A DNA stretch of 64,000 nt. It comes from the human T2T-CHM13v2.0 reference genome, Homo sapiens. Below are positions 31,401 through 57,779 of the stretch, piece after piece. The first letter of the stretch is position 1; each line of letters begins with the position of its first letter. A model generated the notes under the pieces. That model was not told the DNA's origin. It ran no database searches and worked only from the letters and a program-made list of their open reading frames with translations. A program made the position numbers and the translations under genes. The stretch lies in assembly GCF_009914755.1 (NCBI RefSeq), contig NC_060933.1, one strand, 5' to 3'.

Positions 31401-34400
31401 GGAACGGAATGGAATGGAATGGAATGGAATGGAATGGAATGGAATCAACCTGACTGCAGGGGAATGGAATGGAATGGAATGCAATGGAATGGATTCAACT
31501 TGAATGTAATGGAAAGAATGGAATCAACACGAGTGGAATGGCATGGATTGGAATGGAATGGAATGGAATCAACCCGAGTACAGGGGAATGGAATGGAATG
31601 GGATGCAATGGAATGGAATCATCCGTAATGGAATGGAAAGGAAAGGAATGGAATGGAATGGAATGGAATGGAATGGAATGGAATGGAATCAACTCGATTG
31701 CAATCGAATGGAATGGAATGGAATTAACCCGAATAGAATGGAATGGAATGGAATGGAACGGAACGGAACGGAATGGAATGGAATGGAATGGAATGGAACG
31801 GAAAGGAATGGAATGGAATGGAATGGAATGGAATGGAATGGAATGGAATGGAATGGAATGGAATGGAATCAACGCGAGTGCAGGGGAATGGAATGGAATG
31901 GAATGCAATGGAATGGCATCTTCCGGAATGGAATGGAATTGAATGGAATGGAATGGAATAAACCCTAGTGCAATGGAATGGAGTGGAATGGAATGGAATG
32001 GAATGGAATAATCCGAATGGAATGGAATGTAATGGAGACTAAGGGAGTTGAATAGAATCAATCCGAATGTTATGGAATGGAATGGAACGGAATGGAATGG
32101 AATGGAATGGAATGGAATGGAATGCAATGGAATGGAATCAACCCGAGTGCAATCGAATGGACTCGAATGGAATGGATTGCAATGGAATGGAATCAACCCG
32201 AGTGCAATCGAATGGACTCGAATGGAATGGAATGCAATGGAATGGATTCAACTTGAATGGAATGGAAAGAATGGAATCAACACGAGTGGAAGGGCATGGA
32301 TTGGAATGCAATAGAATGGAATCAACCCGAGTACAGGGGAACGGAATGGAATGGAATGCAATGGAATGGAATCATCCGTAATGGAATGGAAAGGAATGGA
32401 ATGGAATGGAATGGAATGGAATGGAATGGAATGGAATGGAATCAACACGATTGCAATCGAATGGAATGGAATGGAATTAACCCGAATAGAATGGAATGGA
32501 ATGGAATGGAACAGAACGGAACGGAATGGAATGGAATAGACTGGAATGGAACGGAACGGAACGGAACGGAATGGAATGGAATGGAATGGAATGGAATGGA
32601 ATGGAATGGAATGGAATCAACGCGACTGCAGGGGAATGGAATGGAATGGAATGCAATGGAATGGAATCTTCCGGAATGGAATGGAATGGAATGGAATGGA
32701 ATGGAATGAAATGCAATGGATTCAACTCGATTGCAATGGAATGGAATAGAATGGAATGGAATGGAATGGAATTGAATTAACCCGAATAGAATGGAATGGA
32801 ATGGAATGGAACGGAATGGAACGGAATGGAATGGAATGGAATGGAATGGTATGGAATGGAATGGAATGGTATGGAATAGAATGGAGTGGAACGAATTGTA
32901 ATGGAATGGAATTGAATGGAATGGAATGGAATCAACGCGAGTGCAGGGGAATGTAATGGAACGGAATGCAATAGAATGGAATCATCCGGAATGGAATGGA
33001 ATGGAAAGGAATGGAATCAACCCGAGTGCAATGGAATAGAGTGGAATGGAATGGAATGGAATGGAACAACCCGAATGGAATGGAATGTAATGGAGAGTAA
33101 GGGAGTTGAATAGAATCAATACGAATGTAATGGAATGGAATGCAACGGAATGGAATGGAATGGAATGGAATGGAATGGAATGGAATGGAATGGAATGCAA
33201 AGGAATGGAATCAACCCGAGTGGAATGGCATGGAATGGAATGCAATGCAATGGAATGGAATGGAATCAACTCGAGTGGAAAGGAATGGAATGGAATGGAA
33301 AGGAATGGAATGAAATCAACTCGAGTGGAATGGAATGGAATGGAATAGATTGGAATGGATTGCAACGGAATGAAATGGAATGGAATGGAATGGAATCAAT
33401 CATTCCGAGTGGAATGGAAGGGAATGTAATGGAGTGGAAAGAAGGGAATGGAATCAACCCGATAGGAATGCAAGGCAATGGAATGGAATGGAAAGGAATG
33501 GAATGGAATCAACTCGATTGCAATGGAATGGAATGGAATGGAATGGAATTAACCGGAATAGAATGGAATGCAATGGAATGGAACGGAATGGAATGGAATG
33601 GAAGGTAATGGAATCAACACGAGTGCAGGGGAATGGAATGGAATGGAATGCAATGGAATGGAATCATCCGGAATGGAATGGAATGGAATGGAATCAACTC
33701 CATTGCAATGGAATGGAATGGAATGGAATGGAATGGAATCAACTCGATTGGAATGGAATGGAATGGAATGGAATGGAATTAACCCGAATAAAATGGAATG
33801 GAATGGAATGGAACGGAATGGAATTGAATGGAATGGAATGGAATGGAATCAACCCGACTGCAGGGGAATGGAATGGAATGGAATGCAATGGAATGGATTC
33901 AACTTGAATGGAATGGAAAGAATGGAATCAACACGAGTGGAATGGCATGGATTGGAATGGAATGGAATGGAATCAACCCGAGTACAGGGGAATGGAATGG
34001 AATGGAATGCAATGGAATGGAATCATCCGTAATGGAATGGAAAGGAATGGAATGGAATGGAATGGAATGGAATGGAATGGAATGGAATGGAATGGAATCA
34101 ACTCGATTGCAATCGAATGGAATGGAATGGAATTAACCCGAATAGAATGGAATGGAATGGAATGGAACGGAACGGAATGGAATGGAATGGAATGGAACGG
34201 AAAGGAAGGGAATGGAATGGAATAGAATGGAATGGAATGGAATCAACGCGAGTGCAGGGGAATGGAATGGAATGGAATGCAATGGAATGGAATCTTCCGG
34301 AATGGAAAGGAATGGAATGGAATGGAATGGAATGGAATGGAATCAACCCGAGTGCAATGGAATGGAGTGGAGTGGAATGGAATGGAATGGAACAACCCGA

Positions 34401-36543
34401 ATGGAATGGAATGTAATGGAGTGTAAGGGAATTGAATAGAATCAATCCGAATGGAATGGAATGGAATGGAACGGAATGGAATGGAATGGAATGGAATGGA
34501 ATGGAATGGAATGCAATGGAATGGAATCAACCCGAGTGCAATCGAATGGAATCGAATGGAATGGAATGCAATGGAATGGATTCAAATTGAATGGAATGGA
34601 AAGAATGGAATCAACACGAGTGGAATGGCATGGCTTGGAATGGAATGAAATGGAATCAACCCGAGTACAGGGGAATTTAATGGAATGGAATGCAATGGAA
34701 TGGAATCATCCGTAATGGAATGGAAAGGAATGGAATGGAATGGAATGGAATGGAATGGAATGGAATGGAATCAACTCGATTGCAATCGAATGGAATGGAA
34801 TGGAATTAACCCGAATAGAATGGAATGGAATGGAATGGAACGGAACGGAATGGAATGGAATGGAATGGAATGGAATGGAATGGAATGGAACGGAACGGAA
34901 TGGAATGGAATGGAATGGAATGGAATCAACGCGAGTGCAGGGGAATGGAATGGAATGGAATGCAATGGAATGGAATCTTCCGGAATGGAATGGAATGGAA
35001 TGGAATGGAATGGAATGAAATGCCATGGATTCAACTCGATTGCAATGGAATGGAATAGAATGGAATTGAATGGAATTAATTCGAATAGAATGGAATGGAA
35101 TGCAATGGAACGGAATGGAACGGAATGGAATGGAATGGAATGGAATGGAATGGTATGGAATGGAATGGAATGGTACGGAATATAATGGAATGTAACTAAT
35201 TGTAATTTAATGGAATTGAATGGAATGGAATGGAATCAACGCGAGTGCAGGGGAATGTAATGGAACGGAATGCAATGGAATGGAATCATCCGGAATGGAA
35301 TGGAATGGAATGGAATGGAATGGAAGGGAATGGAATCAACCCGAGTGCAATGGAATGGAGTGGAATGTTATGGAATGGAATGGAACAACCCGAATGGAAT
35401 GGAATGTAATGGAATGTAATTGAGTTGAATAGAATCAATCCGAATGTAATGGAATGGAATGCAACGGAATGGAATGGAATGGAATGCAATGGAATGCAAT
35501 CAACCAGAGTACAATGGAATGGAATGGAATGGAATGGAATGGAATGGAATGCCTTCAAACCGAATGGAATGGAAAGGAATGGAATCAACACGAGTGGAAT
35601 GGAATGGAATGGAATTGAATGGAAGGGAATGATACGGAATAGAATGGAATGGAACGAAATGGAATGGAATGGAATGGAATGGAATGGAATGGAATGGAAT
35701 GGAATCGTTCCGAGTGGAATAGGAGGGAATGTATTCGAGTGGAATGGAAAGGAATGGGATCAACCAGAGTGGAATGGAAGGGAATGGAATGGAATGGAAA
35801 CTAATAGAATGGAATCAACCCGAGTGGAATGGAATGGAAAGGACTGGAATGGAATGGAACGGAATGGAATCAACTCGATTGTAATGGAATGGAATGGAAT
35901 GGAATGGAATGGAATGGAATTAACCCGAATACAATGGAATGGAATGGAATGGAACGGAATGGAGTGGAATGGAATGGAATCAACCCGAGTGCAGGGGAAT
36001 GGAATGGAATGGAATGCAATGGAATGGAATCATCCGGAATGGAATGGAATGGAATGGAATGCAAAGCAATGGAATCAACTCGATTGCAATGGAATGGAAT
36101 GGAATGGAAAGGAATACATTGGAATCAACCCGAGTGGAATGGAATGGAAAGGACAGGAATGGAGTGGAATGGAATGGAATGGAATGGAATGGAATGGAAT
36201 CAACTCGATTGGAATGGAATGGAATGGAATGGAATGAAATGGAATTAACCCGAATAGAATGGAATGGAATGGAATGGAACGGAACGGAACGGAACGGAAC
36301 GGAATGGAATGGAATGGAATGGAATGGAATGGAATGGAATGGAATCAACCCGACTGCAGGGGAATGGAATGGAATGGAATGCAATGGAATGGATTCAACT
36401 TGAATGGAATGGAAAGAATGGAATCAACACGAGTGGAATGGCATGGATTGGAATGGAATGGAATGGAATCAACCCGAGTACAGGGGAATGGAATGGAATG
36501 GAATGCAATGGAATGGAAACATCCGGAATGGAATGGAATGGAA

Positions 36544-38930
36544 TGGAATGGAATGGAATGGAATGGAATGGAATGGAATGGAATCAACTCGATTGCAATC
36601 GAATGGAATGGAATGGATTTAACCCGAATAGAATTGAATGGAATGGAATGGAACGGAACGGAACAGAATGGAATGGAATGGAATGGAATGGAATGGAATG
36701 GAATGGAATGGAACGGAAAGGAATGGAATGGAATGGAATGGAATGTAATGGAATGGAATGGAATCAACGCGAGTGCAGGGGAATGGAATGGAATGGAATG
36801 CAATGGAATGGAATCTTCCGGAATGGAATGGAATGGAATGGAATGGAATGGAATGGAATGGAATAAACCCGAGTGCAATGGAATGGAGTGGAATGGAATG
36901 GAATGGAATGGAACAGCCCGAATGGAAAGGAATGTAATGGAGAGTAAGGGAGTTGAATAGAATCAATCCGAATGTAATGGAATGGAATGGAACGGAATGG
37001 AATTGAATGGAATGGAATGGAATGCAATGGAATGGAATCAACCCGAGTGCAATGGAATGGAGAGGAATGGAATGGAATGGAATGGAAACTACCCGAATGG
37101 AATGGAATGTAATGGAGTGTAAGGGAATTGAATAGAATCAATCCGAATGTAATGGAATGGAATGGAATGCAATGGAATGGAATGCAATGGAATGGAATCA
37201 ACCCGAGTGCAATCGAATGGAATCGAATGGAATGGAATGCAATGGAATGGATTCAACTTGAATGGAATGGAAAGAATGGAATCAACACGAGTGGAAGGGC
37301 ATGGATTACAATGCAATGGAATGGAATCAACCCGAGTACAGGGGAATGGAATGGAATGGAATGCAATGGAATGGAATCAACACGATTGCAATCGAATGGA
37401 ATGGAATGGAATTAACCCGAATAGAATGGAATGGAATGGAATGGAACGGAACGGAATGGAATGCAATGGAATCAACCCGAGTGCAGGGGAATGGAATGGA
37501 ATGGAATGCAATGGAATGGAATCATCCGGAATGGAATGGAATGGAATGGAATGCAAAGCAATGGAATCAACTCGATTGCAATGGAATGGAATGGAATGGA
37601 AAGGAATACATTGGAATCAACCCGAGTGGAATGGAATGGAAAGGACTGGAACGGAGTGGAATGTAATGGAATGGAATGGAATGGAATCAACTCGATTGGA
37701 ATGGAATGGAATGGAATGGAATGGAATTAACCCGAATAGAATTGAATGGAATGGAATGGAACGGAACGGAACGGAATGGAATGGAATGGAATGGAATGGA
37801 ATGGAATGGAATGGAATCAACCCGACTGCAGGGGAATGGAATGGAATGGAATGCAATGGAATGGATTCAACTTGAATGGAATGGAAAGAATGGAATCAAC
37901 ACGAGTGGAATGGCATGGATTGGAATGGAATGGAATGCAATCAACCCGAGTACAGGGGAATGGAATGGAATGGAATGCAATGGAATGGAATCATCCGTAA
38001 TGGAATGGAAAGGAATGGAATGGAATGGAATGGAATGGAATGGAATGGAATCAACTCGATTGCAGTCGAATGGAATGGAATGGAATTAACCCGAATAGAA
38101 TGGAATGGAATGGAATGGAACGGAACGGAACGGAACGGAACGGAACGGAATGGAATGGAATGGAATGGAACGGAAAGGAATGGAATGGAATGGAATGGAA
38201 TGGAATGGAATGGAATGGAATCAACGCGAGTGCAGGGGAATGGAATGGAATGGAATGCAATGGAATGGAATCTTCCGGAATGGAATGGAATGGAATGGAA
38301 TGGAATGGAATGGAATGGAATGGAATAAACCCGAGTGCAATGGAATGGAGTGGAATGGAATGGAATGGAATGGAACAACCCGAATGGAATGGAATGTAAT
38401 GGAGACTAAGGGAGTTGAATAGAATCAATCCGAATGTAATGGAATGGAATGGAAAGGAATCGAGTTGAATGGAATGGAATGGAATGGAATGCAATGGAAT
38501 GGAATCAACCCGAGTGCAATGGAATGGAGAGGAATGGAATGGAATGGAATGGAAACTACCCGAATGGAATGGAATGTAATGGAGTGTAAGGGAATTGAAT
38601 AGAATCAATCCGAATGTAATGGAATGGAATGGAACGGAATGGAATGGAATGGAATGGAATGGAATGGAATGGAATGGAATGCAATGGAATGGAATCAACC
38701 CGAGTGCAATCGAATGGAATCGAATGGAATGGAATGCAATGGAATGGATTCAACTTGAATGGAATGGAAAGAATGGAATCAACACGAGTGGAAGGGCATG
38801 GATTGGAATGCAATGGAATGGAATCAACCTGAGTACAGGGGAATGGAATGGAATGGAATGCAATGGAATGGAATCATCCGTAATGGAATGGAAAGGAATG
38901 GAATGGAATGGAATGGAATGGAATGGAATG
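36544..38930 (+). repeat. Near-identical paralog of positions 1 to about 2410 (offset about 36.54 kb)
   Basis: Private variants TGGATTTAACCCG (71/36614), GGATTACAATGC (about 760/37303) and CAGCCCGAATGGAAAGG; ORF pair 76..498 and 36619..37041 is offset by 36543. Confidence 0.9.
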
Positions 38931-39479
38931 GAATGGAATCAACTCGATTGCAATCGAATGGAATGGAATGGAATTAACCCAAATAGAATGGAATGGAATG
39001 GAATGGAATGGAACGGAATGGAATGGAATGCAATGGAATGGAATGGAATGGAACGGAACGGAACGGAATGGAATGGAATGGAATGGAATGGAATGGAATG
39101 GAATCAACGCGAGTGCAGGGGAATGGAATGGAATGGAATGCAATGGAATGGAATCTTCCGGAACGGAATGGAATGGAATGGAATGGAATGGAATGGAATG
39201 GAATCAACCCGAGTGCAATGGAATGGAGTGGAATGGAATGGAATGGAATGGAACAACCCGAATGGAATGGAATGTAATGGAGAGTAATGGAGTTGAATAG
39301 AATCAATCCGAATGTAATGGAATGGAATGGAACGGAATGGAATTGAATGGAATGGAATGGAATGCAATGGAATGGAATCAACCCGAGTTCAATGGAATGG
39401 AGAGGAATGGAATGGAATGGAATGGAAATTACCCGAATGGAATGTAATGTAATGGAGTGTAAGGGAATTGAATAGAATC

Positions 39480-41880
39480 AATCCGAATGTAATGGAATGG
39501 AATGGAACAGAATGGAATGGAATGGAATGGAATGGAATGGAATGGAATGCAATGGAATGGAATCACCCCGAGTGCAATCGAATGGAATCGAATGGAATGG
39601 AATGCAATGGAATGGATTCAACTTGAATGGAATGGAAAGAATGGAATCAACACGAGTGGAATGGCATGGATTGGAATGGAATGGAATGGAATCAACCCGA
39701 GTACAGGGGAATGGAATGGAATGGAATGCAATGGAATGGAATCATCCGTAATGGAATGGAAAGGAATGGAATGGAATGGAATGGAATGGAATGGAATGGA
39801 ATGGAATCAACCCGAGTGCAGGGGAATGGAATGGAATGCAATGGAATGGAATGGAATGGAATGGAGTGGAATGGAATGGAATCAACCCGAGTGCAGGGGA
39901 ATGGAATGGAATGGAATGCAATGGAATGGAATCATCCGGAATGGAATGGAATGGAATGGAATGCAAAGCAATGGAATCAACTCGATTGCAATGGAATGGA
40001 ATGGAATGGAAAGGAATACATTGGAATCAACCCGAGTTGAATGGAATGGAAAGGACTGGAATGGAGTGGAATGGAATGGAATGCAATGGAATGGAATGGA
40101 ATGGAATCAACTTGATTGGAATGGAATGGAATGGAATCAACCCGACTGCAGGGGAATGGAATGGAATGGAATGCAATGGAATGGATTCAACTTGAATGGA
40201 ATGGAAAGAATGGAATCAACACGAGTGGAATGGCATGGATTGGAATGGAATGGAATGGAATCAACCCGAGTACAGGGGAATGGAATGGAATGGAATGCAA
40301 TGGAATGGAATCATCCGTAATGGAATGGAAAGGAATGGAATGGAATGGAATGGAATGGAATGGAATCAACTCGATTGCAATCGAATGGAATGGAATGGAA
40401 TTAACCCGAATAGAATGGAATGGAATGGAATGGAACGGAACGGAATGGAATGGAATGGAATGGAATGGAATGGAATGGAACGGAACGGAATGGAATGGAA
40501 TGGAATGGAATGGAATGGAATCAACGCGAGTGCAGGGGAATGGAATGGAATGGAATGAAATGGAATGGAATCTTCCGGAATGGAATGGAATTGAATGGAA
40601 TGGAATGCAATGGTATAGAATAAACCCGAGTGCAATGGAATGGAGTGGAATGGAATGGAATGGAATGGAACAACCCGAATGGAATGGAATGTAATGGAGA
40701 CTAAGGGAGTTGAATAGAATCAATCCAAATGTAATGGAATGGAATGGAACGGAATGGAATTGAATGGAATGGAATGGAATGCAATGGAATGGAAACTTCC
40801 GGAATGGAATGGAATGGAATGGAATGGAATGAAATGCAATGGATTCAACTCGATTGCAATGGAATGGAATAGAACGGAATGGAATGGAATGGAATGGAAC
40901 TAATCCGAATAGAATGGAATGGAATTGAATGGGATTAACCTGAATAGAATGGAATGGAATGGAATGGAACGGAATGGAACGGAATGGAATGGAATGCAAT
41001 GGAATGGAATGGAACGGAATGGAATGGTATGGAATGGAATGGAATGGTACGGAATAGAATGGAATGGAACGAATTGTAATGGAATGGAATTGAATGGAAC
41101 GGAATGGAATGGAATGGAATCAACGTGAGCGCAGGGGAATGTAATGGAACGGAATGCAATGGAATGGAATCATCCGGAATGGAATGGAATGGAATGGAAT
41201 GGAATGGAATGGAATGGAACAACCCGAATGGAATGGAATATAATGGAGAGTAAGGGAGTTGAATAGAATCAATCGGAATGTAATGGAATGGAATGCAACG
41301 GAATGGAATGGAATGGAATGGAATGGAATGGAATGGAATGCAAAGGAATGGAATCAACCCGAGTGGAATGGCATGGAATGGAATGCAATGGAATGGAATG
41401 GAATGGTATCAACTCGAGTAGAAAGGAATGGAATGGAATGGAAAGGAATGGAATGAAATCAACTCGAGTGGAATGGAATGGAATGGATTGGAATGGATTG
41501 CAATGGAATGAAATGGAATGGAATGGAATGGAATCAATCATTCCGAGTGGAATGGAAGGGAATGTAAAGGAGTGGAAAGAAGGGAATGGAATCAACCCGA
41601 TTGGAATGCAAGGCAATGGAATGGAATGGAAAGGAATGGAATGGAATCAACTCGATTGCAATGGAATGGAATGGAATGGAATGGAATGGAATGGAATGGA
41701 ATGGAATGGAATTAACCGGAATAGAATGGAATGCAATGGAATGGAACGGAATGGAATGGAATAGAAGGTAATGGAATCAACACGAGTGCAGGGGAATGGA
41801 ATGGAATGGAATGCAATGGAATGAAATCATCCGGAATGGAATGGAATGGAATGGAATCAACTCCATTGCAATGGAATGGA
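39480..41880 (+). repeat. Near-identical paralog of about 9240-11630 (offset about 30.26 kb)
   Basis: Private variants CACCCCGAGTGC (9295/39564), GGTATAGAATAAACC, CAACGTGAGCGCAGG (10868/41121), CAATCGGAATG and ATGAAATCATCCGG occur in the same order in both. Confidence 0.9.
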
Positions 41881-42202
41881 GTGGAATGGAATGGAATGGA
41901 ATGGAACAACCTGAATGGAATCGAATGTAATGGAGAGTAAGGGAGTTGAATAGAATCAATCCGAATGTAATGGAATGGAATGGAACGGAATGGAATTGAA
42001 TGGAATGGAATGGAATGCAATGGAATGGAATCAACCCGAGTGCAATGGAATGGAGAGGAAGGGAATGGAATGGAGTGGAAACTACCCGAATGGAATGGAA
42101 TGTAATGGAGTGTAAGGGAATTGAATAGAATCAATCCGAATGTAATGGAATGGAATGGAACGGAATGGAATGGAATGGAATGGAATGGAATGGAAAGAAG
42201 GG

Positions 42203-42230
42203 AATGGAATCAACCCGAGTTGATTCCATT
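42203..42230. other. Intra-array inversion breakpoint; 12-bp inverted arms around a 4-nt centre
   Basis: AATGGAATCAAC-CCGA-GTTGATTCCATT; arms 42203-42214 and 42219-42230 are exact reverse complements, and strand polarity flips here. Confidence 0.95.
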
Positions 42231-45200
42231 GCTTTGCATTCCGTTCCATTCCATTCCTTTTCATTGTATTCGGGTTAATTCCATTGCATTCCATTCCATT
42301 CCTTTCCATTCCATTCCATTCCATTACAATGGAGTTGATTCCATTCCATTCCATTCCATTCCATTCCATTCCAGTCCTTTCCATTCCATTCCACTCGGGT
42401 TGATTCCATTCTATTAGTTTCCATTCCATTCCATTCCCTTCCATTCCACTCTGGTTGATTCCATTCCTTTCCATTTCACTCGAATACATTCCCTCCTATT
42501 CCACTCGGAACGATTCCATTCCATTCCATTCCATTCCATTCCATTCCATTCCATTCCATTTCGTTCCATTCCATTCTATTCCGTACCATTCCATTCCATT
42601 CCATTCCATTCCATTCCATTCTACTCGTGTTGATTACATTCCTTTCCATTGCATTCAGTTTGAAGGCATTCCATTCCATTCCATTCCATTCCATTCCATT
42701 CCATTCCATTCCATTACATTACATTCCATTCCATTGTACTCGGGTTGATTCCGTTCCATTGCATTCCATTCCATTCCATTCCATTCCATTCCATTCCATT
42801 CCATTCCATTCCATTCCATTCCGGATGATTCCATTCCATTGCATTCCATTCCATTCCATTCCCCAGCACTCGGGTTGATTACGTTCCATTCCCTTCCCTT
42901 CCATTCCTTTCCATTCCATTCCATTCCATTCTATTCGGGTGAATTCCATTCCATTCCATTCCATTCCATTCCATTCCTTTCCATTCCATTCCATTGCAAT
43001 CGAGTTGAATCCATTCCATTCCATTCCATTCCGTTCCGGATGATTCCATTCCATTGCATTCCATTCCATTCCATTCCCCTGCAGTCGGTTTGATTCCTTT
43101 CCACTCCATTCCATTCCATTCCATTTCATTCCATACCATTCCATTCCCCTGCAGTCGGTATGATTCCTTTCCATTCCATTCCATTCCGTTCCATTACATT
43201 CCATTCTGTTCCATTGCATTCCATTCCATTCTATTCGGGTTAATTCCATTCCATTCCTTTCCATTCCATTCCAATCGAGTTAATTCCATTCCATTGCATT
43301 CCATTCCACTCCATTCCAGTCCTTTCCATTCCATTCCACTCGGGTTGATTCCATTCTATTCCTTTCCATTCCATTCCATTGCAATCGAGTTGATTCCATT
43401 CCATTGCATTCCATTCCATTCCATTCCATTCCATTCCATTCCATTCCAATACTTTCGGATTGATTCTATTCAATTCCCTTACACTCCATTACATTCCATT
43501 CCATTCGGGTAGTTTCCATTCCATTCCATTCCATTCCTCTCCATTCCATTGCACTCGGGTTGATTCCATTCCATTCCATGCCATTCCATGCCATTCCATT
43601 CCATTCCATTCCATTCCATTCCGGATGATTCCATTCTATTGAATTCCATTCCATTCCATTCCCCTGCACTTGGGTTGACTCCATTCCATTCCATTCCATT
43701 ACTTTCAGTTCCATTCCATTCCTTTCCATTCCATTCCATTCCATTCCATTCCATTCTATTCGTGTTAATTCCATTCCATTCCATTGAAATCGAGTTGATT
43801 CCATTCCATTCCATTCCATTCCATTCCATTCCATTCCATTCCGGATGATTCCATTCCATTACATTCCAATCCATTCCATTCCCCTGCACTCGGGTTGAAT
43901 CCATTCCTTTCCATTCCATTACATTCCGTTCCATTCCATTCCATTCCATTCTATTCGGGTTAATTCCATTCCATTCCATTCCACTCCATTCCAGTCCTTT
44001 CAATTCCATTCCACTCGGGTTGATTCCATTCTATTCCTTTCCATTCCATTCCATTCCATTGCAATCGAGTTGATTCCATTCGAGTTGAATCCATTCCATT
44101 CCATTCCATTCCATTACATTGCACACGGGTTCATTCCATTCCATTCCATTCCATTCCATTCCATTCCATTTCATTCCATTCCATTCTATTCCGTACCATT
44201 CCATTCCATCCCATTCCATTCCATCCCATTCCATTCCATGCCATTACACTCGGGTTGATTCCATTCCTTTCCATTCCATTCTTGTTGAATCCATTCCATT
44301 CCATTCCATTCCATTCGTATCCATTCCATTGCACTCGGGTTGATTCCATTCCATTCCATTCCATTCCATTCCATTTCATTCCATTCCATTCCATTAAATT
44401 CGGATTGATTCTATTCAATTCCCTTACACTCCATTCCATTCCATTCCATTCGGGATGTTTCCATTCCTTTCCATTCCATTCCACTCCATTCCATTGCATT
44501 GGGTTGATTGCATTCCATTCCATTCCATTCCATTCAGGATGATTCCATTCCATTGCATTCCATTCCATTCCATTCCCCTGCACTCGGGTTGATTACATTC
44601 CACTCCATTCCCTTCCATTCCCTTCCATTCCATTCCATTGCTATCGAGTTGATTCCATACCATTCCATTCCATTCCATTCCATTCCATTCCATTCCATTC
44701 CGGATGATTCCATTCCATTGCATTCCATTCCATTCCATTCCCCTGCACTCGGGTTGATTCCATTCCATTTCATTCCATTACATTCCGTTCCATTCCATTC
44801 CATTCCATTCTATTCGGGTTAATTCCATTCCATTCCATTCCATTCCATTCCATTGTAATCGAGTTGATTCCATTCCATTCCATTCCATTGCAATCGATTT
44901 GATTCCATTCCATTCCATTCCATTCCAGTCCATTCCAGTCCTTTGCATTCCATTCCACTCGGGTTGATTCCATTCTATTCCATTCCATTCCATTTCATTC
45001 CATTCCATTCCATTACATTCGGACTGATTCTATTCAATTCCCTTACACTCCATTACATTCCATTCCATTCGGGATTTTTCCATTCCATTCCATTCCATTC
45101 CATTCCATTCCATTCCATTCCATTGCATCGGGTTCATTCCATTCCATTCCATTCCATTCCATTCCGGATGATTCCATTCCATTGCATTCAATTCCATTCC

Positions 45201-45836
45201 ATTCCCCTGCACTCGGGTTGAATCCACGCGATTCCATTCCATTCCATTCCATTCCATTCCATTCCATTGCAATCGAGTTGATTCCATTCCATTCCATTCC
45301 GTTCCGTTCCGGATGATTCCATTCCATTGCGTTCCATTACATTCCATTCCCGTGCAGTCGGGTTTATTCCATTCCATTCCATTCCATTCCATTCCGTTCC
45401 ATTCCATTCCATTCCATTCTATTCGGGTTAATTCCATTCCATTCCATTCCATTCCATTCAAATTCCATTCCACTCCATTCCATTCCATTCCATTCCATTC
45501 CATTCCATTCCATTCCGGATGATTCCATTCCATTGCATTCCCTTCCATTACATTCCCCAGCACTCGCGTTGATTCCATTCCATTCCATTCCATTCCATTC
45601 AATTCCATTCCATTACAATTCCTTCCATTCCATTCTATTCCGTACCATTCCATTCCATTCCATACCATTCCATTCCATTCCATTCCATTCCGTTCAATTC
45701 CGTTCCATTCCATTCCATTCCATTCTATTCGGGTTAATTCCATTCCATTCCATTCCATTCCATTCCATTCTATTCCATTCCATTGCAATCGAGTTGAATC
45801 CATTGCATTTCATTCCTTTCCATTCCATTCCATTCC

Positions 45837-45851
45837 ATTCCGGAAGATTCT
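45837..45851 (-). promoter_or_regulatory. Perfect three-unit heat shock element; first of about 16 copies on the inverted arm
   Basis: aTTCc gGAAg aTTCt. Others near 47274, 48324, 50944, 51204, 52803, 53357, 53642, 55460, 56727, 57595, 58285, 59729, 60607, 62444, 63102. Confidence 0.7.
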
Positions 45852-48800
45852 ATTCCATTGCATTCCATTCCATTCCATTCCCCTGCACTCGCTTTGTTTC
45901 CATTCCATTCCATTCCATTCCATTCCATACATTCCGTTCCGTTCCATTCCATTCCATTCCATTCCATTCCATTCCATTCCGTTCCGTCCCATTCCATTCC
46001 ATTCCATTCTATTCGGGTTAATTCCATTCCATTCCACTCGATTGCAATCGAGTTGATTCCATTCCATTCCATTCCATTCTATTCCATTCCATTCCTTTCC
46101 ATTCCATTCCTTTCCATTCCATTACGGATGATTCCATTCCATTCCCCTGTTCTCGGGTTGATTCCATTCCTTTCCATTCCAATCCATGCCATTCCACTCT
46201 TGTTGATTCCATTTTTTCCATTCCATTCAAGTTGAATCCATTCCATTGCATTCCATTCCATTCGATTCCATTCGATTGCACTCGGGTTGATTCCATTCCA
46301 TTGCATTCCATTCCATTCCATTCCATTCCATTCCATTCCGTTCCATTCCATTCCATTACATTCGGATTGATTCTATTCAATTCCCTTACACTCCATTACA
46401 TTCCTTTCCATTCGGGTAGTTTCCATTCCATTCCATTCCATTCCTCTCCATTCCATTGCACTCGGGTTGATTCCATTCCATTCCATTCCATTCCATACCA
46501 TTCCATTCCATTCCATTGTACTCGGGTTGATTCCATTCCATTGCATTCCATTCCATTCCATTCCATTCCATTCCTTTCCATTCCATTACGGATGATTCCA
46601 TTCCATTGCATTCCATTCCAATCCATTCCCCTGCACTCGCGTTGATTCCATTCCATTCCATTCCTTTCCGTTCCATTCCATTCCATTCCATTCCATTCCA
46701 TTCTATTCGGGTTAATTCCATTCCATTCCATTCGATTGCAATCGAGTTGATTGCATTCCATTCCATTCCAATCCATGCCCTTCCACTCGTGTTGATTCCA
46801 TTCTTTCCATTCCATTCAAGTTGAATCCATTCCATTGCATTCCATTCCATTCGATTCCATTCGATTGCACTCGGGTTGATTCCATTCCATTCCATTCCAT
46901 TCCATTCCGTTCCATTCCATTCCATTCCATTCCAGATGATTCCATTCCATTGCATTCCGTTCCATTTCATTCCCCTGCACTCGCGTTGGTTCCATTCCAT
47001 TCCATTCCATTCCATTCAATTCCATTCCATTACAATTCGTTCCACTCCATTCTATTCCGTACCATTCCATTCCATAACATACCATTCCATTCCATTCCAT
47101 TCCATTCCATTCCATTCCATTCCGTTGCATTCCGTTCCATTCCATTCCATTCCATTCCATTCTATTCGGGTTAATCCCATTCCATTCCATTCCATTCCAT
47201 TCTATTCCATTCCATTGCAATCGTGTTGAATCCATTGCATTTCATTCCATTCCATTCCATTCCATTCCATTCCATTCCGGAAGATTCCATTCCATTGCAT
47301 TCTATTCCATGCCATTCAACTGCACTCGCGTTGATTCCATTCCATTCCATTCCATTCCATTCCATTCCATTCAATTCCGTTCCGTTCCGTTCTGTTCCAT
47401 TCCATTCCATTCCATTCCATTCCATTCCGTTCCGTTCCATTCCATTCCATTCCATTCTATTCGGGTTAATTCCATTCCATTCCATTCGATTTCATTCGTG
47501 TTGATTCCATTCCATTCCATTCCATTCCATTCAATTCCATTCCATTCCATTTCATTCCTTTCCATTGCATTACGGATGATTCCATTCCATTGCATTCCAT
47601 TCCATTCCATTCCCCTGTACTCGAGTTGATTCCATTGCTTTGCATTCCATTCCATTCCATTCCATTCCGGATGATTCCATTCCATTGCATTCCATTCCAT
47701 TCCATTCCCCTGCAGTCGGGTTGATTCCATTCCATTCCATTCCATTCCATTCCATTCCATTCCATTCCGTTCCGTTCCGTTCCGTTCCATTCCATTCCTT
47801 TCCATTCTATTCGGGTTAATTCCATTCCATTCCATTCCATTCCATTCCATTCCATTACAGTCGAGTTGATTCCATTCCATTCCATTCCATTCCATTCCAT
47901 TACATTCCAGTCCTTTCCATTCCTTTCCACTCGGGTTGATTCCATTCTATTAGTTTCCATTCCATTCCATTCCCTTCCATTCCACTCTGGTTGATTCCAT
48001 TCCTTTCCATTCCACTCGAATACATTCCCTCCTATTCCACTCGGAACGATTCCATTCCATTCCATTCCATTCCATTCCATTCCATTCCATTCCAGTTCGT
48101 TTGATTCCATTCTATTCCATACCATTCCATTCCATTCCATTCCTTTCCATTCCATTCCTTTCCACTCGTGTTGATTCCATTCCATTCCATTCCATTCGGT
48201 TTGAAGGCATTCCATTCCATTCAATTCCATTCCATTCCACTCCATTCCATTCCATTCTATTCCATTCCATTGCAATCGAGTTGAATCCATTGCCTTTCAT
48301 TCCATTCCATTCCATTCCATTCCATTCCGGAAGATTCCATTCCATTGCATTCCATTCCATTCCATTCCCCTGCACTCGCGTTGATTCCATTCCATTCCAT
48401 TCCATTCCATTCCGTTCCGTTCCATTCCATTCCATTCCATTCCGTTCCGTTGCATTCCACTCCATTCCATGCTATTCGGGTTAATTCCATTCCATTCCAT
48501 TCGATTGCCATCGAGTTGATTCCATTCCATTCCATTGCATTCCATTCCATTCCATTCCATTCCATTCCACTCCATTCGGTTCCGTTGCATTCCATTCTAT
48601 TGCATTCCATTCTATTCGGGTTAATTCCATTCCATTCTATTCCATTCCATTCCATTCCATTCCATTGCAATGGAGTTGATTCCATTCCATTCCATTCCAT
48701 TCCGGATGATTCCATTACATTGCATTCCATTCCATTCCATTCCCCTGCATTCGTGATGATTCCATTCCCTTCCATTCCATTCCATTCCGTTCCATTCCAT

Positions 48801-49599
48801 TCCATTCCATTCTATTCCGGTTAATTCCATTCCATTCCATTCCATTCCATTGCAATCGAGTTGATTCCATGCCATTCCTTTCCATTCCATTCCATTGCCT
48901 TGCATTCCACTCGGGTTGATTCCATTCCCTTCTTTCCACTCTATTACATTCCCTTCCATTCCACTCGGAATGATTGATTCCATTCCATTCCATTCCATTT
49001 CATTCCATTGCAATCCATTCAAATCCATTCCATTCCATTCCATTCCACTCGAGTTGACTTCATTCCATTCCTTTCCATTCCATTCCATTCATTTCCACTC
49101 GAGTTGATTCCATTCCATTCCATTCCATTGCATTCCATTCCATGCCATTCCACTCGGGTTGATTCCATTCCTTTGCATTCCATTCCATTCCATTCCATTC
49201 CATTCCATTCCGTTGCATTCCATTCCATTACATTCGGATTGATTCTATTCAACTCCATTACTGTCCATTACATTCCATTCCATACGGGTTGTTCCATTCC
49301 ATTCCATTCCATTCCACTCCATTCCATTGCACTCGGGTTGATTCCATTCCATTCCATTCCTTTCCATTCCATTCCGGATGATTCCATTCCATTGCATTCC
49401 GTTCCATTACATTCCCCTGCACTCGCGTTGATTCCATTCCATTCCATTCCATTCCATTCAATTCCATTCCATTACAATTCGTTCCATTCCATTCTATTCC
49501 GTACCATTCCATTCCATTCCATACCATTCCATTCCATTCCATTCCATTCCATTCCGTTCCATTCCGTTCCATTCCATTCCATTCTATTCGGGTTAATTC

Positions 49600-52500
49600 C
49601 ATTCCATTCCATTCCATTCCGGATGATTCCATTCCATTGCATTCCATTCCATTCCATTCCCCTGCACTCGGGTTGATTCCATTCCATTCCACTCCATTCC
49701 ATTCCATTCCATTCCATTCCGTTGTATTCGGGTTAATTCCATTCCATTCCATTCCATTCCATTCCATTCCATTCCATTCCAATCCATTCCAATCGAGTTG
49801 ATTCCATTCCATTCCATTCCATTCCATTCCATTCCATTCCAGTCCTTTCCATTCCATTCCACTCGGGTTGATTCCATTCTATTAGTTTCCATTCCATTCC
49901 ATTCCCTTCCATTCCACTCTGGTTGATTCCATTCCTTTCCATTCCACTCGAATACATTCCCTCCTATTCCACTCGGAACGATTCCATTCCATTCCATTCC
50001 ATTCCATTCCATTCCATTCCATTTCATTCCATTCCATTCTATTCCGTACCATTCCATTCCATTCCATTCCTTTCCATTCCATTCCATTCCAATCGTGTTG
50101 ATTCCATTCCTTTCCATTCCATTCGGTTTGAAAGCATTCCATTCCATTCAATTCCACTCCATTCCATTCCATTCCATTCCATTCCATTCCATTGTACTCG
50201 GGTTGATTCCATTCCATTGCATTCCATTGCATTCCATTCCATTCCATTCCATTCCATTCCATTCCATTCCGTTGCATTCCATTCCATTACATTCGGATTG
50301 ATTCTATTCAAATCCCTTACTCTCCATTACATTCCATTCCATTCGGGTTGTTCCATTCCATTCCATTCCATTCCACTCCATTCCATTGCACTCGGGTTGA
50401 TTCCATTCCATTCCATTCCATTCCATTCCGGATGATTCCATTCCATTCCATTCCATTCCATTCCATTCCATTTCGTTCCATTCCATTCTATTCCGTATCA
50501 TTCCATTCCATTCCATTCCATTCCATTCCATTCCATTCCATTCCATTGTACTCGGGTTGATTCCATTCCATTGCATTCCATTCCATTCCATTCCATTCCA
50601 TTCCATTCCATTCCGTTCCATTCCATTCCATTACATTCGGATTGATTCTATTCAATTCCCTTACACTCCATTACATTCCATTCCATTCGGGTAGTTTCCA
50701 TTCGATTCCATTCCATTCCTCTCCATTCCATTGCACTCGGGTTGATTCCATTCCATTGCATTCCATTCCATTCCATTCAATTCCATTCCGTTCCATTCCA
50801 TTCCATTACATTCGGAATGATTCTATTCAACTCCCTTACTCTCCATTCCATTCCATTCCATTCGGGTTGTTCCATTCCATTCCATTCCATTCCACTCCAT
50901 TCCATTGCACTCGGGTTGATTCCATTCCATTCCATTCCATTCCATTCCGGAAGATTCCATTCCATTGCATTCCATTACGTTCCATTCCCCTGCAATCGCG
51001 TTGATTCCATTCCATTCCATTCCATTCCATTCCGTTCCATTCCTTTCCTTGCCGTTCCATTCCATTCCATTCCATTCCGTTCCGTTCCGTTCCGTTCCAT
51101 TCCATTCCATTCCATTCCATTCTATTCGGGTGAATTCCATTCCATTCCATTCGATTGCAATCGAGTTGATTCCATTCCATTCCATTCCATTCCATTCCAT
51201 TGCATTCCGGAAGATTCCATTCCATTGCATTCCATTCCATTCCATTCCCCTGCACTCGCTTTGATTCCATTCCATTCTATTCCATTCCATTGCATTCCAT
51301 TCCGTTCCGTTCCGTTCCATTCCATTCCGTTCCATTCCATTCCGTTCCGTTCCGTTCCATTCCATTCCATTCCATTCTATTCGGGTTAATTCCATTCCAT
51401 TCCATTCCATTTCAATCGAGTAGATTCCATTCCATTCCATTCCATTCCATTCCATTCCATTCCATTCTATTCGGGATAATTCCATTCCATTCCATTCCAT
51501 TCCATTCCAATCGAGTTGATTCCATTCCATTCCATTCCATTCCATTCCATTCCACTCCATTCCAGTCCTTTCCATTCCATTCCACTCGGGTTGATTCCAA
51601 TGTATTCCTTTCCATTCCATTCCATTCCATTGCAATCGAGTTGATTCCATTGCTTTGCATTCCATTCCATTCCATTCCATTCCGGATGATTCCATTCCAT
51701 TGCATTCCATTCCATTACATTCCCCTGCACTCGGGTTGATTCCATTCCATTCCACTCCATTCCATTCCATTCCATTCCATTCCGTTGTATTCGGGTTAAT
51801 TCCATTCCATTCCATTCCATTCCATTCCATTCCATTCCATTCCAATCCATTACAATCGAGTTGATTCCATTCCATTCCATTCCATTCCATTCCAGTCCTT
51901 TCCATTCCATTCCACTCGGGTTGATTCCATTCTATTAGTTTCCATTCCATTCCATTCCCTTCCATTCCACTCTGATTGATTCCATTCCTTTCCATTCCAC
52001 TCGAATACATTCCCTTCTATTCCACTCGGAACGATTCTATTCCATTCCATTCCATTCCATTCCATTCCGTTCCATTTCGTTCCATTCCATTCTATTCCGT
52101 ACCATGCCATTCCATTCCATTCCTTTCCATTCCATTCCATTCCACTCGTGTTGATTCCATTCCTTTCCATTCCATTCGGTTTGAAAGCATTCCATTCCAT
52201 TCAATTCCACTCCATTCCATTCCATTCCATTCCATTCCATTCCATTGAACTCGGGTTGATTCCATTCCATTGCATTCCATTCCATTTCATTCCATTCCAT
52301 TGCATTCCATTCCATTCCATTCCGTTGCATTCCATTCCATTACATTCGGATTGATTCTATTCAACTCCCTTACTCTCCATTACTTTCCATTCCATTCGGG
52401 TTGTTCCATTCCATTCCATTTCATTCCACTCCATTCCATTGCACTCGGGTTGATTCCATTCCATTCCATTCCATTCCATTCTGGATGATTCCATTCCATT

Positions 52501-55500
52501 GCATTCCGTTACATTACATTCCCTTGCACTCGCGTTGATTCCATTGCATTCCATTCCATTCCATTCAATTCCATTCCATTACAATTCGTTGCAATCCATT
52601 CTATTCCGTAACATTCCATTCCATTCCATACAATTCCATTCCATTCCATTCCATTCCATTCCATTCCGTTCCATTCCGTTCCATTCCATTCCATTCCATT
52701 CTATTCGGGTTAATTCCATTCCATTCTATTCCATTCCATACTATTCCATTCCATTGCAATCGAGTTGAATCCATTGCATTTCATTCCATTCCATTCCATT
52801 CCATTCCGGAAGATTCCATTCCATTGCATTCCATTCCATTCCATTCCCCTGCACACGCGTTGATTCCATTCCATTCCATTCCATTCCATTCCGTTCCGTT
52901 CCGTTCCGTTCCATTCTATTCCATTCCGTTCCGTTCCATTCCATTCCATTCCATTCTATTTGGGTTAATTCCATTCCATTCCATTCGATTGCAATCGAGT
53001 TGATTCCATTCCATTCCATTCCATTCCGTTCCATTCCATTCCATTACATTCGGATTGATTCTATTCAATTCCCTTACACTCCATTACATTCCATTCCATT
53101 CGGGTAGTTTCCATTCGATTCCATTCCATTCCTCTCCATTCCATTGCACTCGGGTTGATTCCATTCCATTGCATTCCATTCCATTCCATTCAATTCCATT
53201 CCATTCCATTCCATTCCATTACATTCGGAATGATTCTATTCAACTCCCTTACTCTCCATTACATTCCATTCCATTCGGGTTGTTCCATTCCATTCCATTC
53301 CATTCCACTCCATTCCATTGCACTCGGGTTGATTCCATTCCATTCCATTCCATTCCATTCCGGAAGATTCCATTCCATTGCATTCCATTACATTCCATTC
53401 CCCTGCACTCGCGTTGATTCCATTCCATTCCATTCCATTCCATTCCGTTCCATTCCATTCCTTTCCGTTCCATTCCATTCCATTCCATTCCATTCCATTC
53501 CGTTCCGTTCCGTTCCGTTCCGTTCCATTCCATTCCATTCCATTCTATTCGGGTTAATTCCATTCCATTCCCTTCGATTGCAATCGAGTTGATTCCATTC
53601 CATTCCATTCCATTCCATTCCATTCCATTCCATTCCATTGCATTCCGGAAGATTCCATTCCATTGCATTCCATTCCATTCCATTCCCCTGCACTCGCGTT
53701 GATTCCATTCCATTCCATTCCATTCCATTCCATTCCATTCCGTTCCGTTCCGTTCCATTCCGTTCCGTTCCATTCCATTCCCTTCCGTTCCGTTCCATTC
53801 CATTCCATTCCATTCTATTCGGGTTAATTCCATTCCATTCCATTCCATTGCAATCGAGTTGATTCCATTCCATTCCATTCCATTCCATTCCATTCCATTC
53901 CATTCCTTTGCATTCCATTACGGATGATTCCATTCCATTGCATTCCATTCCATTCCATTCCCCTGTACTCGGGTTGATTCCATTCCATTCCATTCCAATC
54001 CATGCCATTCCACTCGTGTTGATTCCATTCTTTCCATTCCATTCAAGTTGAATCCATTCCATTGCATTCCATTCCATTCCATTCCCCTTCAGTCGGGTTG
54101 ATTCCATTCCATTCCATTCCATTCCATTCCATTCCATTCCATTCCATTCCAATCGAGTTGATTCCATTCCATTCCATTCCATTCCATTCCATTCCATTCC
54201 ACTCCTTTCCAGTCCTTTCCATTCCATTCCACTCGGGTTGATTCCAATGTATTCCTTTCCATTCCATTCCATTCCATTGCAATCGAGTTGATTCCATTGC
54301 TTTGCATTCCATTCCATTCCATTCCATTCCGGATGATTCCATTCCATTGCATTCCATTCCATTCCATTCCCCTGCACTCGGGTTGATTCCATTCCATTCC
54401 ACTCCATTCCATTCCATTCCATTCCATTCCGTTGTATTCGGGTTAATTCCATTCCATTCCATTCCATTCCATTCCATTCCAATCCATTACAATCGAGTTG
54501 ATTCCATTCCATTCCATTCCATTCCATTCCATTCCATTCCATTCCATTCCAGTCCTTTCCATTCCATTCCACTCGGGTTGATTCCATTCTATTAGTTTCC
54601 ATTCCATTCCATTCCCTTCCATTCCACTCTGGTTGATTCCATTCCTTTCCATTCCTCTCGAATACATTCCCTCCTATTCCACTCGGAACGATTCTATTCC
54701 ATTCCATTCCATTCCATTTCGTTCCATTCCATTCTATTCCGTACCATTCCATTCCATTCCATTCCTTTCCATTCCATTCCATTCCACTCGTGTTGATTCC
54801 ATTCCTTTCCATTCCATTCGGTTTGAAAGCATTCCATTCCATTCAATTCCACTCCATTCCATTCCATTCCATTCCATTTCATTCCATTCCATTCCATTGA
54901 ACTCGTGTTGATTCCATTCCATTGCATTCCATTCCATTCCATTCCATTCCATTCCATTCCTTTCCATTCCATTCCGTTGCATTCCATTCCATTACACTCG
55001 GATTGATTCCATTCAACTCCCTTACTCTCCATTACATTCCATTCCATTCGGGTTGTTCCATTCCTTTCCATTCCATTCCACTCCATTCCATTGCACTCGG
55101 GTTGATTCCATTCCATTCCATTCCATTCCATTCCGGATGATTCCATTCCATTGCATTCCGTTCCATTACATTCCCTTGCACTCACGTTGATTCCATTCCA
55201 TTCCATTCCATTCCATTCCATTCCATTCCATTCCATTACAATTCGTTCCATTCCATTCTATTCCGTACCATTCCATTCCATTCCATACCATTCCATTCCA
55301 TTCCATTCCATTCCATTCCATTCCGTTCCATTCCGTTCCAATCCATTCCATTCCATTCTATTCGGGTTAATTCCATTCCATTCCATTCCATTCCATTCTA
55401 TTCCATTCCATTGCAATCGAGTTGAATCCATTGCATTTCATTCCATTCCATTCCATTCCATTCCGGAAGATTCCATTCCATTGCATTCCATTCCATTCCA

Positions 55501-55700
55501 TTCCCCTGCACTCGCGTTGATTCCATTCCATTCCATTCCATTCCATTCCGTTCCGTTCCGTTCCTTTCCATTCCATTCCATTCCATTCCATTCCATTCCG
55601 TTCCGTTCCATTCCATTCCATTCCATTCTATTTGGGTTAATTCCATTTCATTCCATTCGATTGCAATCGAGTTGATTCCATTCCATTCCATTCCATTCCA
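49600..55700 (-). repeat. Irregular tandem triplication (offsets about 2.05, 2.41 and 2.65 kb)
   Basis: TTTGAAAGCATT at about 50127, 52180, 54822; GTTGTATTCGGG at about 49721, 51784, 54431; TTCGGAATGATT at about 50811, 53224. Confidence 0.8.
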
Positions 55701-57779
55701 TTCCATTCCATTCCATTCCATTCCATTCCATTCCTTTCCATTCCATTACGGATGATTCCATTCCATTGCATTCCATTCCATTCCATTCCCCTGTACTCGG
55801 GTTGATTCCATTCCATTCCATTCCAATCCATGCCATTCCACTCGTGTTGATTCCATGCTTTCCATTCCATTCAAGTTGAATCCATTCCATTGCATTGCAT
55901 TCCATTTGATTCCATTCGATTGCACTCGGGTTGATTCCATTCCATTCCATTCCATTCCATTCCATCCTATTCCATTCCGTTCCGTTCCGTTCCATTCCAT
56001 TCCATTCCATTCCATTCCATTCCGTTCCGTTCCGTTCCATTCCATTCCATTCCATTCTATTCGGGTTAATTCCATTCCATTCCATTCGATTGCAATCGTG
56101 TTGATTCCATTCCATTCCATTCCATTCCATTCCATTCCATTCCTTTCCATTCCATTACGGATGATTCCATTCCATTGCATTCCATTCCATTCCATTCCCC
56201 TGTACTCGGGTTGATTCTATTCCATTGCATTCCAATCCATGCCCTTCCACTCGTGTTGATTCCATTCTTTCCATTCCATTCAAGTTGAATCCATTCCATT
56301 GCATTCCATTCCATTCGATTCCATTCGATTGCACTCGGGTTGATTCCATTCCATTGCATTCCAGTCCATTCCATTCCATTCCGTTCCATTCCATTCCATT
56401 ACATTCGGATTGATTCTATTCAATTCCCTTACTCTCCATTACATTCCATTCCATTCGGGTAGTTTCCATTCCATTCCATTCCATTCCTCTCCATTCCATT
56501 GCACTCGGGTTGATTCCATTCCATTGCATTCCATTCCATTCCATTCAATTCCATTCCGTTCCATTCCATTCCATTACATTCGGATTGATTCTATTCAACT
56601 CCCTTACTCTCTATTACATTCCATTCCATTCGGGCTGTTCCATTCCATTCCATTCCATTCCACTCCATTCCATTGCATTCGGGTTTATTCCATTCCATTC
56701 CATTCCATTCGATTCCATTCCATTCCATTCCGGAAGATTCCATTCCATTGCATTCCATTCCATTCCATTCCCCTGCACTCCCGTTGATTCCATTCCATTC
56801 CATTCCATTCCATTCCATTCCATTCCATTCCATTCCATTCCTTTCCGTTCCATTCCATTCCATTCCATTCCATTCCGTTCCGTTCCGTTCCATTCCATTC
56901 CATTCCTTTCTATTCGGGTTAATTCCATTCCATTTCATTCGATTGCAATCGAGTTGATTCCATTCCATTCCATTCCATTCCATTCCATTCCATTCCATTC
57001 CTTTCCATTCCATTACGGATGATTCCATTCCATTGCATTCCATTCCATTCCATTCCCCTGTACTCGGGTTGTTTCCATTCCATTGCATTCCAATCCATGC
57101 CCTTCCACTCGTGTTGATTCCATTCTTTCCATTCCATTCAAGTTGAATCCATTCCATTGCATTCCATTCACTTCGATTCCATTCGATTGCACTCGGGTTG
57201 ATTCCATTCCATTGCATTCCATTCCATTCCATTCCATTCCATTCCATTCCATTCCGTTCCATTCCATTCCATTACATTCGGATTGATTCTATTCAATTCC
57301 CTTGCACTCCATTACATTCCTTTCCATTCGGGCAGTTTCCATTCCATTCCATTCCATTCCTCTCCATTCCATTGCACTCGGGTTGATTCCATTCCATTGC
57401 ATTCCATTCCATTCCATTCAATCCCATTCCGTTCCATACCATTCCATTCCATTCGGATTGATTCTATTCAACTCCCTTACTCTCCATTACATTCCATTCC
57501 ATTCGGGTTGTTCCATACCATTCCATTCCATTCCACTCCATTCCATTGCACTCGGATTTATTCCATTCCATTCCATTCCATTCCATTCCATTCCATTCCG
57601 GAAGATTCCATTCCATTGCATTCCATTCCATTCCATTCCATTCCAATCGAGTTGATTCCATTCCATTGCATTCCATTCCATTCCACTCCATTCCAGTCCT
57701 TTCCATTCCATTACACTCGAGTTGATTCCATTCCATTCCACTCCATTCCGTTCCATTCCATTCCATTCCATTGTATTCG

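What the first reader, a model, noticed from the sequence alone, without database searches (positions are those of the whole stretch)
42203..42230. Inversion junction made by fusing two quasi-palindromic modules at a 5-bp microhomology
Seen: the left side is the module AAAGAAGGGAATGGAATCAACCCGAGT (intact at about 12530-12556, where it continues GGAATGC). The right side is the reverse complement of GCAAAGCAATGGAATCAACTCG(ATTGC). The two share CGAGT (42216-42220) with no inserted bases, giving a 28-bp inverted repeat with one mismatched pair. Inference: in a strand-asymmetric array the CAAC(C/T)CGAGT decamer is among the few sequences with homology to the opposite strand, so it may act as a built-in strand-switch site. 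Known: T2T assemblies show many inversions in the chr9 HSat3 array.
Basis: partly seen in the sequence, partly recalled or inferred. Interest (0 to 1): 0.7.

Follow-up and report, generated by a model that had tools for sequence, protein, structure and literature searches.

The report
One satellite inversion copied 53 times
This strand flip in the large human chromosome 9 satellite array is real, but it is one of 53 near-identical copies of a single junction, likely made once by joining two broken ends at five shared bases and then copied as the array grew, and 14 such junction types cover all 228 flips mapped in the array.

Summary
Observation confirmed: one GGAAT-to-ATTCC strand switch at window 42216-42220 (CHM13 chr9:75,682,216-220), in the HSat3 array. 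Unrearranged alleles of both arms exist elsewhere in the array and overlap the junction by exactly CGAGT; random joins give 5 bases or more in 0.16% of cases. The 28-bp inverted repeat is a by-product (19% of random joins give one). The junction has 53 copies on chr9 with private flanks, and all 46 module-to-module fusions found genome-wide are these copies, so it most likely arose once. Extending the search gave 228 switch sites, alternating convergent/divergent in 225 of 227 neighbours, in 14 lineages; four lineages hold 191. Overlaps at the 14 are longer than chance (31 vs 7.4 bases summed); one passes through the TCGATTGCAAT palindrome, but CpG-module enrichment is not significant once overlap length is matched (P 0.21). 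The 200+ chr9 inversions are known; their reduction to a few amplified junctions I did not find in print, with two key papers unreadable.

The parts
42216..42220 (.). 5-bp microhomology CGAGT at the strand switch (junction lineage here called C1)
   Evidence: Both unrearranged donor alleles match the window up to and including these bases and differ beyond them
42203..42230 (.). 28-bp imperfect inverted repeat, by-product of the join
   Evidence: 13 of 14 pairs; 19% of random joins give as much
42025..42220 (+). Left arm: private HSat3 haplotype ending in the GGAAAGAAG..CAACCCGAGT module
   Evidence: Identical to unrearranged alleles at chr9:58,700,685 and 69,325,465; its 39-mer occurs at 35 places, 32 at C1 junctions
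42216..42302 (-). Right arm: private HSat3 haplotype ending in GCAAAGCAATGGAATCAACTCG
   Evidence: Identical to unrearranged alleles at chr9:59,571,559, 64,189,366, 70,200,441; its 35-mer occurs exactly at 43 places, 40 at C1 junctions
1..42220 (+). GGAAT-oriented HSat3 block; starts 121.6 kb before the junction at a D1 switch (chr9:75,560,621)
   Evidence: the HSat3B5 24-mer tabulated in PMC4022460 is read on the minus strand at 42087-42110 (by eye)
42216..64000 (-). ATTCC-oriented HSat3 block; ends 123.9 kb after the junction at a D1 switch (chr9:75,806,080)
12527..12556 (+). Intact sister copy of the left module (not the donor)
   Evidence: 30 bp identical to 42191-42220, different upstream context

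Best explanation
The site is a real strand switch in the chr9 HSat3 array with an exact 5-base overlap and 53 near-identical copies, and it likely arose once, by microhomology-guided end joining or a replication template switch between two oppositely oriented array positions, and was then likely multiplied by duplications of the array. Shown: switch, overlap, copy number, private flanks, surviving unrearranged alleles, strict alternation with divergent switches, repeated runs of junctions at fixed megabase offsets. Inferred: (1) the repair pathway, which sequence alone cannot separate; (2) that once one inversion existed, long inverted homologous tracts let ordinary homologous exchange flip whole segments without making new junction sequence, giving 34 forward and 19 reverse copies; (3) that unequal exchange or segmental duplication copied convergent and divergent junctions together, so switch number grows with array length. 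The inverted repeat is a consequence of the join, not its cause. No function is implied.
For: 53 copies, 38 exact, all on chr9 51.07-75.68 Mb; 20 of 20 fetched copies are true polarity switches. Private right-arm 35-mer beside 51 of 53 copies; 40 of 43 exact sites are at junctions; left 39-mer 32 of 35 sites at junctions. Median divergence among 20 fetched copies 0.7-1.0% within 300 bp, rising to 2% on the right and 11% on the left by 1-1.4 kb, as expected for common descent with flank exchange. 46 of 46 module-to-module fusions are C1. 228 sites, 113 convergent and 115 divergent, 225 of 227 neighbours alternate (about 103 same-class neighbours expected at random for the 209-site map). 31 of 32 junctions in 52.3-54.65 Mb recur at +8.7-8.8 Mb and 43 of 44 in 54.6-60.9 Mb at +10.6 Mb; a run of 10 recurs inverted. 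Switch number scales with array length across haplotypes, r = 0.90 (bioRxiv 10.64898/2026.07.22.740206, passages).
Against: No reciprocal divergent partner of C1 was found (0 hits), so the original event cannot be rebuilt as a clean two-ended inversion. The surviving 'donor' alleles could be later recombinants off a junction; one lies only 1 kb from a C1 copy, and by the 10.6-Mb duplication the five alleles are only three independent ones. Only 32 of 53 copies carry the left 39-mer exactly; of 6 of the other 21 that were fetched, 5 have the same arm with small changes and 1 (L073) has a different upstream context. The 20 copies used for divergence were the best matches to the window, so divergence is biased low. 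With 14 lineages, one overlap of 5 or more has about a 2% chance of being accidental. One haploid genome only; no reads examined.
Confidence: 0.85

Rival explanations
1. The CAAC(C/T)CGAGT decamer is a built-in strand-switch site that is used again and again, so the many copies are independent events.
For: Exact 5-bp overlap in the module; D5 passes through the related palindrome; 10 of 28 lineage ends lie within 4 bp of a donor CpG against 18.6% expected (P 0.025).
Against: 46 of 46 module-to-module fusions are one lineage with shared private flanks; D5 is a singleton (1 exact hit); by lineage the CpG excess is P 0.06, and 0.21 when matched for overlap length; D4 and D6 join at a plain 2-bp AT overlap and C6 is blunt. 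A weak bias towards such modules, as a consequence of needing microhomology, remains open.
Confidence: 0.06
2. One origin, but copies spread as short junction cassettes by gene conversion or local transposition rather than by large duplications and flips.
For: Identity among copies is highest within a few hundred bases and decays by 1 kb on the left.
Against: A single switch cannot be inserted alone without reversing everything beyond it; convergent and divergent sites alternate at a median 80 kb and recur in ordered megabase runs. Conversion can explain the flank decay, not the copy number.
Confidence: 0.05
3. Blunt end joining, with the 5-base overlap accidental.
For: C6 and probably C9 are blunt; C1 was singled out by a reader looking for a pattern.
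Against: P 0.0016 per join; 2 of 14 lineages have 5 or more (P 2e-4); the other 12 still sum to 15 against 6.3 (P 0.008).
Confidence: 0.03
4. Assembly artefact, or a fold-back (hairpin) chimera.
For: No reads were examined here; the junction strand folds strongly (-46.1 kcal/mol, z -10.5), as any switch in this satellite would.
Against: 53 copies with their own point differences in both orientations; the two arms come from different positions of the repeat unit, not mirror images; about 129 switches per haplotype in HPRC assemblies (10.64898/2026.09.03.749043, passages); 1,738 older reads matched both HSat2,3 strands (PMC4022460, passages).
Confidence: 0.01

Closest known systems
Inversion breakpoints (strand switches) of the chr9 HSat3B5 array, Altemose et al. 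(bioRxiv 10.1101/2021.07.12.452052, passages)
   Same: Same array; 'over 200 inversion breakpoints' reported, 228 mapped here.
   Different: The passages seen count breakpoints but give no junction sequences, overlaps or families.
Strand switches as by-products of array expansion (bioRxiv 10.64898/2026.07.22.740206, passages)
   Same: Number scales with HSat3 length; no hotspots; read as by-products of expansion.
   Different: Argued from counts and positions; 'microhomology' has 0 occurrences in the main text. Here the copies are traced to 14 lineages by sequence.
Palindrome-associated pericentromeric inversions (bioRxiv 10.64898/2026.09.03.749043, passages)
   Different: That statement concerns larger pericentromeric inversions; here the inverted repeat is a product of the join.
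Microhomology-mediated junctions (MMEJ / alternative end joining; FoSTeS / MMBIR template switching; recalled, no call)
   Same: Short exact overlap, no inserted bases, unrelated flanks.
   Different: Usually single-copy scars; this one has become a 53-copy element of the satellite. No templated insertion.
NAHR between inverted repeats (recalled, no call)
   Same: Would flip segments seamlessly once inverted tracts exist; fits copies in both orientations.
   Different: Cannot create the junction: only 5 bases of perfect homology.

Membership tests
chr9 HSat3B5 strand switch | Inside the chr9 HSat3 array with a change of pentamer polarity | tested here: met
   subfamily 24-mer read at 42087-42110
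Microhomology-mediated junction (MMEJ or template switch) | Short exact overlap shared by both donors | tested here: met
   5 bp with unrearranged alleles
Microhomology-mediated junction (MMEJ or template switch) | Overlap longer than chance | tested here: met
   P 0.0016 per join; 2 of 14 lineages at 5 or more, P 2e-4
Microhomology-mediated junction (MMEJ or template switch) | Templated insertion or several switches, which would point to one pathway | tested here: not met
   No inserted base; the apparent splice 30 bp upstream is already in the donor allele
Microhomology-mediated junction (MMEJ or template switch) | Dependence on polymerase theta or on fork restart | not testable with these tools
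   Ancient event; sequence only
Simple reciprocal inversion | A partner junction joining the two remaining ends | tested here: not met
   0 hits for the predicted partner pattern; none of D1, D2 maps next to a C1 arm beyond one chance-level hit
Recurrent rearrangement hotspot | Independent events at the same motif on different flanks | tested here: not met
   46 of 46 fusions are one lineage
NAHR / segmental duplication spread | Junctions recur in ordered direct and inverted blocks | tested here: met
   31 of 32 and 43 of 44 paired at fixed offsets; inverted run of 10
NAHR / segmental duplication spread | Base-level alignment of the duplicated blocks and crossover points | not testable with these tools
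   The genome is not available as a file; inferred from junction order and spacing only
Quasi-palindrome correction site | Copies with the central mismatch perfected or the centre flipped | tested here: not met
   0 of 53 copies (up to 2 mismatches allowed)

The most novel reading that the evidence does not exclude
A handful of ancient junctions, copied hundreds of times, are the engine of 9q12 heterochromatin variation: they turned a one-way satellite into about 230 alternating blocks that recombine as inverted repeats, every human haplotype carries the same few junction families in numbers that track array size, and convergent junctions such as this one form fold-back DNA or double-stranded HSat3 RNA.
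Probability: 0.3. Interest if true: 0.75.

Novelty: new member of a known kind. Interest (0 to 1): 0.5.

Why it matters
It changes the unit of counting: the 200+ inversions of the largest human satellite array are, in CHM13, 14 junction lineages (plus at least 2 unseen sites), four of which give 191 of 228 sites. That gives sequence-level support to the view that the switches are by-products of expansion, explains why this array has many switches (one early inversion is enough), and supplies short unique k-mers that can anchor, date and size the array in short reads, pedigrees and apes. It also warns that motif-enrichment tests on raw breakpoints would be pseudo-replicated.

Tried and rejected
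28-bp inverted repeat as a special feature: 19% of random joins give one. Hairpin energy: true by construction for any switch here. A second template switch 30 bp upstream (suggested): the same hybrid arm exists unrearranged. Reciprocal partner of C1: not found. Four rows first entered as junctions (C4, C5) were dropped: 2 of the 4 were fetched and are local variants without a polarity change; the other 2 share their motifs and were not fetched. Dropped before counting: 2-mismatch rows (C1 copies and unverified variants), two non-chr9 rows, reverse-strand and non-chr9 rows (one chr9 row later proved to be D7), 39 one-mismatch rows, chr7 rows. D3 (6 sites) was merged with D2 because it has the same two flanks. 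One search returned mostly D1/D2; one search's marker was not private (824 hits) and served only as a polarity check (47 of 47 tested rows agree with the map, 52.3-53.4 Mb). Reciprocal pairing among other families was inconclusive except C3b/D2a, which overlap by about 45 bp in 7 top hits. Literature: 9 searches gave no paper describing junction families; (passages) added nothing on this. The Science 2022 version of Altemose et al. and the 2022 HSat review could not be read, and bioRxiv supplements (Tables S6-7; Supplementary Fig. 10) were not seen; they may already list these breakpoints.

Full report
Observation. The window is uninterrupted GGAAT-type satellite with a single change of polarity near 42,220; it is CHM13 chr9:75,640,001-75,704,000. 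The inverted repeat 42203-42230 has 13 of 14 pairs. Among homologous modules in the window and fetched loci, the left one continues CGAGT|G in 20 of 23 cases and the right one ACTCG|A in 34 of 34. Better, unrearranged alleles of both arms survive on chr9: two are identical to window 42025-42220 and three to 42216-42302, so the overlap is exactly 42216-42220 with no insertion.

Chance. Random convergent joins made from the window's two arms overlap by 5 or more bases in 0.16-0.17% of cases, so the microhomology is unlikely to be accidental. The inverted repeat is not remarkable: 19% of 30,000 random joins give 28 bp or more with at most one mismatch, because both arms are made of the same pentamer. 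CGAGT/ACTCG makes up 267 of 3317 random overlaps of 5 or more, beside GAATC, TGCAAT and others.

The junction is not unique. A 141-bp query matched 40 of 40 scored places at 97-100% (702 candidates). The 31-mer, with up to 2 mismatches, occurs 53 times, 38 exact, 34 forward and 19 reverse, all on chr9 between 51.07 and 75.68 Mb, with 0 control hits. All 20 fetched copies are true polarity switches. Both arms are private haplotypes: the right 35-mer occurs exactly at 43 places, 40 of them at these junctions, and lies beside 51 of 53 copies when one mismatch is allowed; the left 39-mer occurs at 35 places, 32 at junctions. Six of the 21 copies without the exact left 39-mer were fetched: five carry the same arm with small changes, one has a different upstream context. 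Median divergence among the 20 best-matching copies is 0.7-1.0% within 300 bp and rises outward. A pattern for any head-to-head fusion of two GGAATCAAC modules with a 2-22 base centre found 46 sites in the genome, all in the list (compared by eye), against roughly 90,000 decamers extrapolated from the window. One origin followed by copying is the simplest reading.

The rest of the array. Generic patterns, family patterns and bisection of gaps by polarity probes gave 228 sites between 49.76 and 76.57 Mb: convergent C1 53, C2 31, C7 22, C3 2, C6 2, C8 1, C9 1, C10 1; divergent D1 85, D2 11 plus its derivative D3 6, D6 9, D4 2, D5 1, D7 1 (names are mine). 225 of 227 neighbours alternate, as real switches must; two convergent sites near 63.8-64.2 Mb remain unseen, and hidden pairs inside blocks cannot be excluded. 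At least one member of every lineage was read as a true switch, 55 sites; most other sites are motif hits supported by alternation and by 47 of 47 marker strands. The total agrees with the 'over 200' breakpoints in print. Junction order and spacing repeat: 31 of 32 sites in 52.3-54.65 Mb recur 8.7-8.8 Mb further on, 43 of 44 in 54.6-60.9 Mb recur 10.6 Mb on, and 10 recur inverted.

Lowest plausible overlaps, read by me from the closest donor contexts (exact donors only for C1 and the a-arm of D1): C1 5, D5 11, D2 3, C2, D1, D4, D6 2 each, C3, C7, C8, D7 1 each, C6, C9, C10 0. The sum is 31 against 7.4 expected (0 of 500,000 simulations); without C1 and D5, 15 against 6.3 (P 0.008). But a donor CpG within 4 bp is seen in 8 of 14 lineages (P 0.06; 0.21 matched for overlap length) and 10 of 28 ends (P 0.025, ends not independent, criterion chosen after seeing the first lineages). 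The modules supply microhomology; they are not shown to be a dedicated or recurrent switch. The null uses this window's composition for the whole array.

Mechanism. Step 1, inferred: a break or stalled fork joined two oppositely oriented positions through CGAGT; end joining and template switching cannot be told apart, and no reciprocal partner survives. Step 2, inferred from order and orientation: duplications copied convergent and divergent junctions together, and exchange between the now inverted tracts flipped segments without new scars. Step 3, inferred: flank exchange eroded shared sequence beyond about 0.3-1 kb. The centre is stable: 0 of 53 copies are perfected or flipped.

Comparison and novelty. 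The switches are known, vary among people (about 129 per haplotype) and have been read as by-products of expansion; I saw passages of these three preprints, not their supplements. Nine searches found no description of junction families, but the Science 2022 paper and the HSat review were not readable, so the claim of novelty is provisional. Verdict: real, an ordinary kind of junction, interpretation partly right; the useful result is the collapse of 228 switches to 14 lineages. Interest 0.5.

Noticed in passing
chr9 52.3-54.65 Mb vs 61.0-63.4 Mb; 54.6-60.9 Mb vs 65.2-71.5 Mb (CHM13): Junction order implies direct duplications of about 2.3 Mb and 6.3 Mb inside the HSat3 array, and an inverted copy of about 0.9 Mb (64.99-65.89 vs 71.57-72.44 Mb).
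   Followed up: partly
L074, L075 (chr9:54,755,09x; 58,656,88x): D3 has D2's two flanks, but both arms now carry the same GGAAA and (G/C)GTAT landmarks and the centre appears in both orientations: possibly palindrome correction at a divergent junction. Perfect arm lengths (29, 19) do not clearly exceed D2's (12-24).
   Followed up: partly
L135 (chr9:63,534,24x): Singleton switch through the TCGATTGCAAT palindrome, inferred 11-bp overlap.
   Followed up: yes
L080 (chr9:75,367,56x): C2 right arm on a different left arm, centre now a 12-bp perfect palindrome; counted as a C2 derivative.
   Followed up: partly
window 8641-11631 vs about 38.9-41.9 kb; 1-2417 vs about 36.5-38.9 kb: Near-identical internal duplications at offsets of about 30.25 kb and 36.5 kb in the left block.
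   Followed up: partly
window 42,000-46,000: Share of 21-mers repeated elsewhere in the window drops to 0.66-0.72 just right of the junction, against mostly 0.8-1.0 elsewhere (lowest 0.60 at 14 kb): a more diverged stretch carried with the junction.
   Followed up: no
chr9:59,571,559, 64,189,366, 70,200,441: All three unrearranged right-arm alleles lie 6.6-7.6 kb from a D6 junction, which may mark the ancestral locus.
   Followed up: no
chr7 58.7-59.06 Mb; chr2 89.36 and 90.39 Mb; chr9 48.706 Mb: Repeated candidate switch motifs in other satellite blocks; not checked for polarity. Rows beyond the first 100 (including chr10 onward) were not shown.
   Followed up: no
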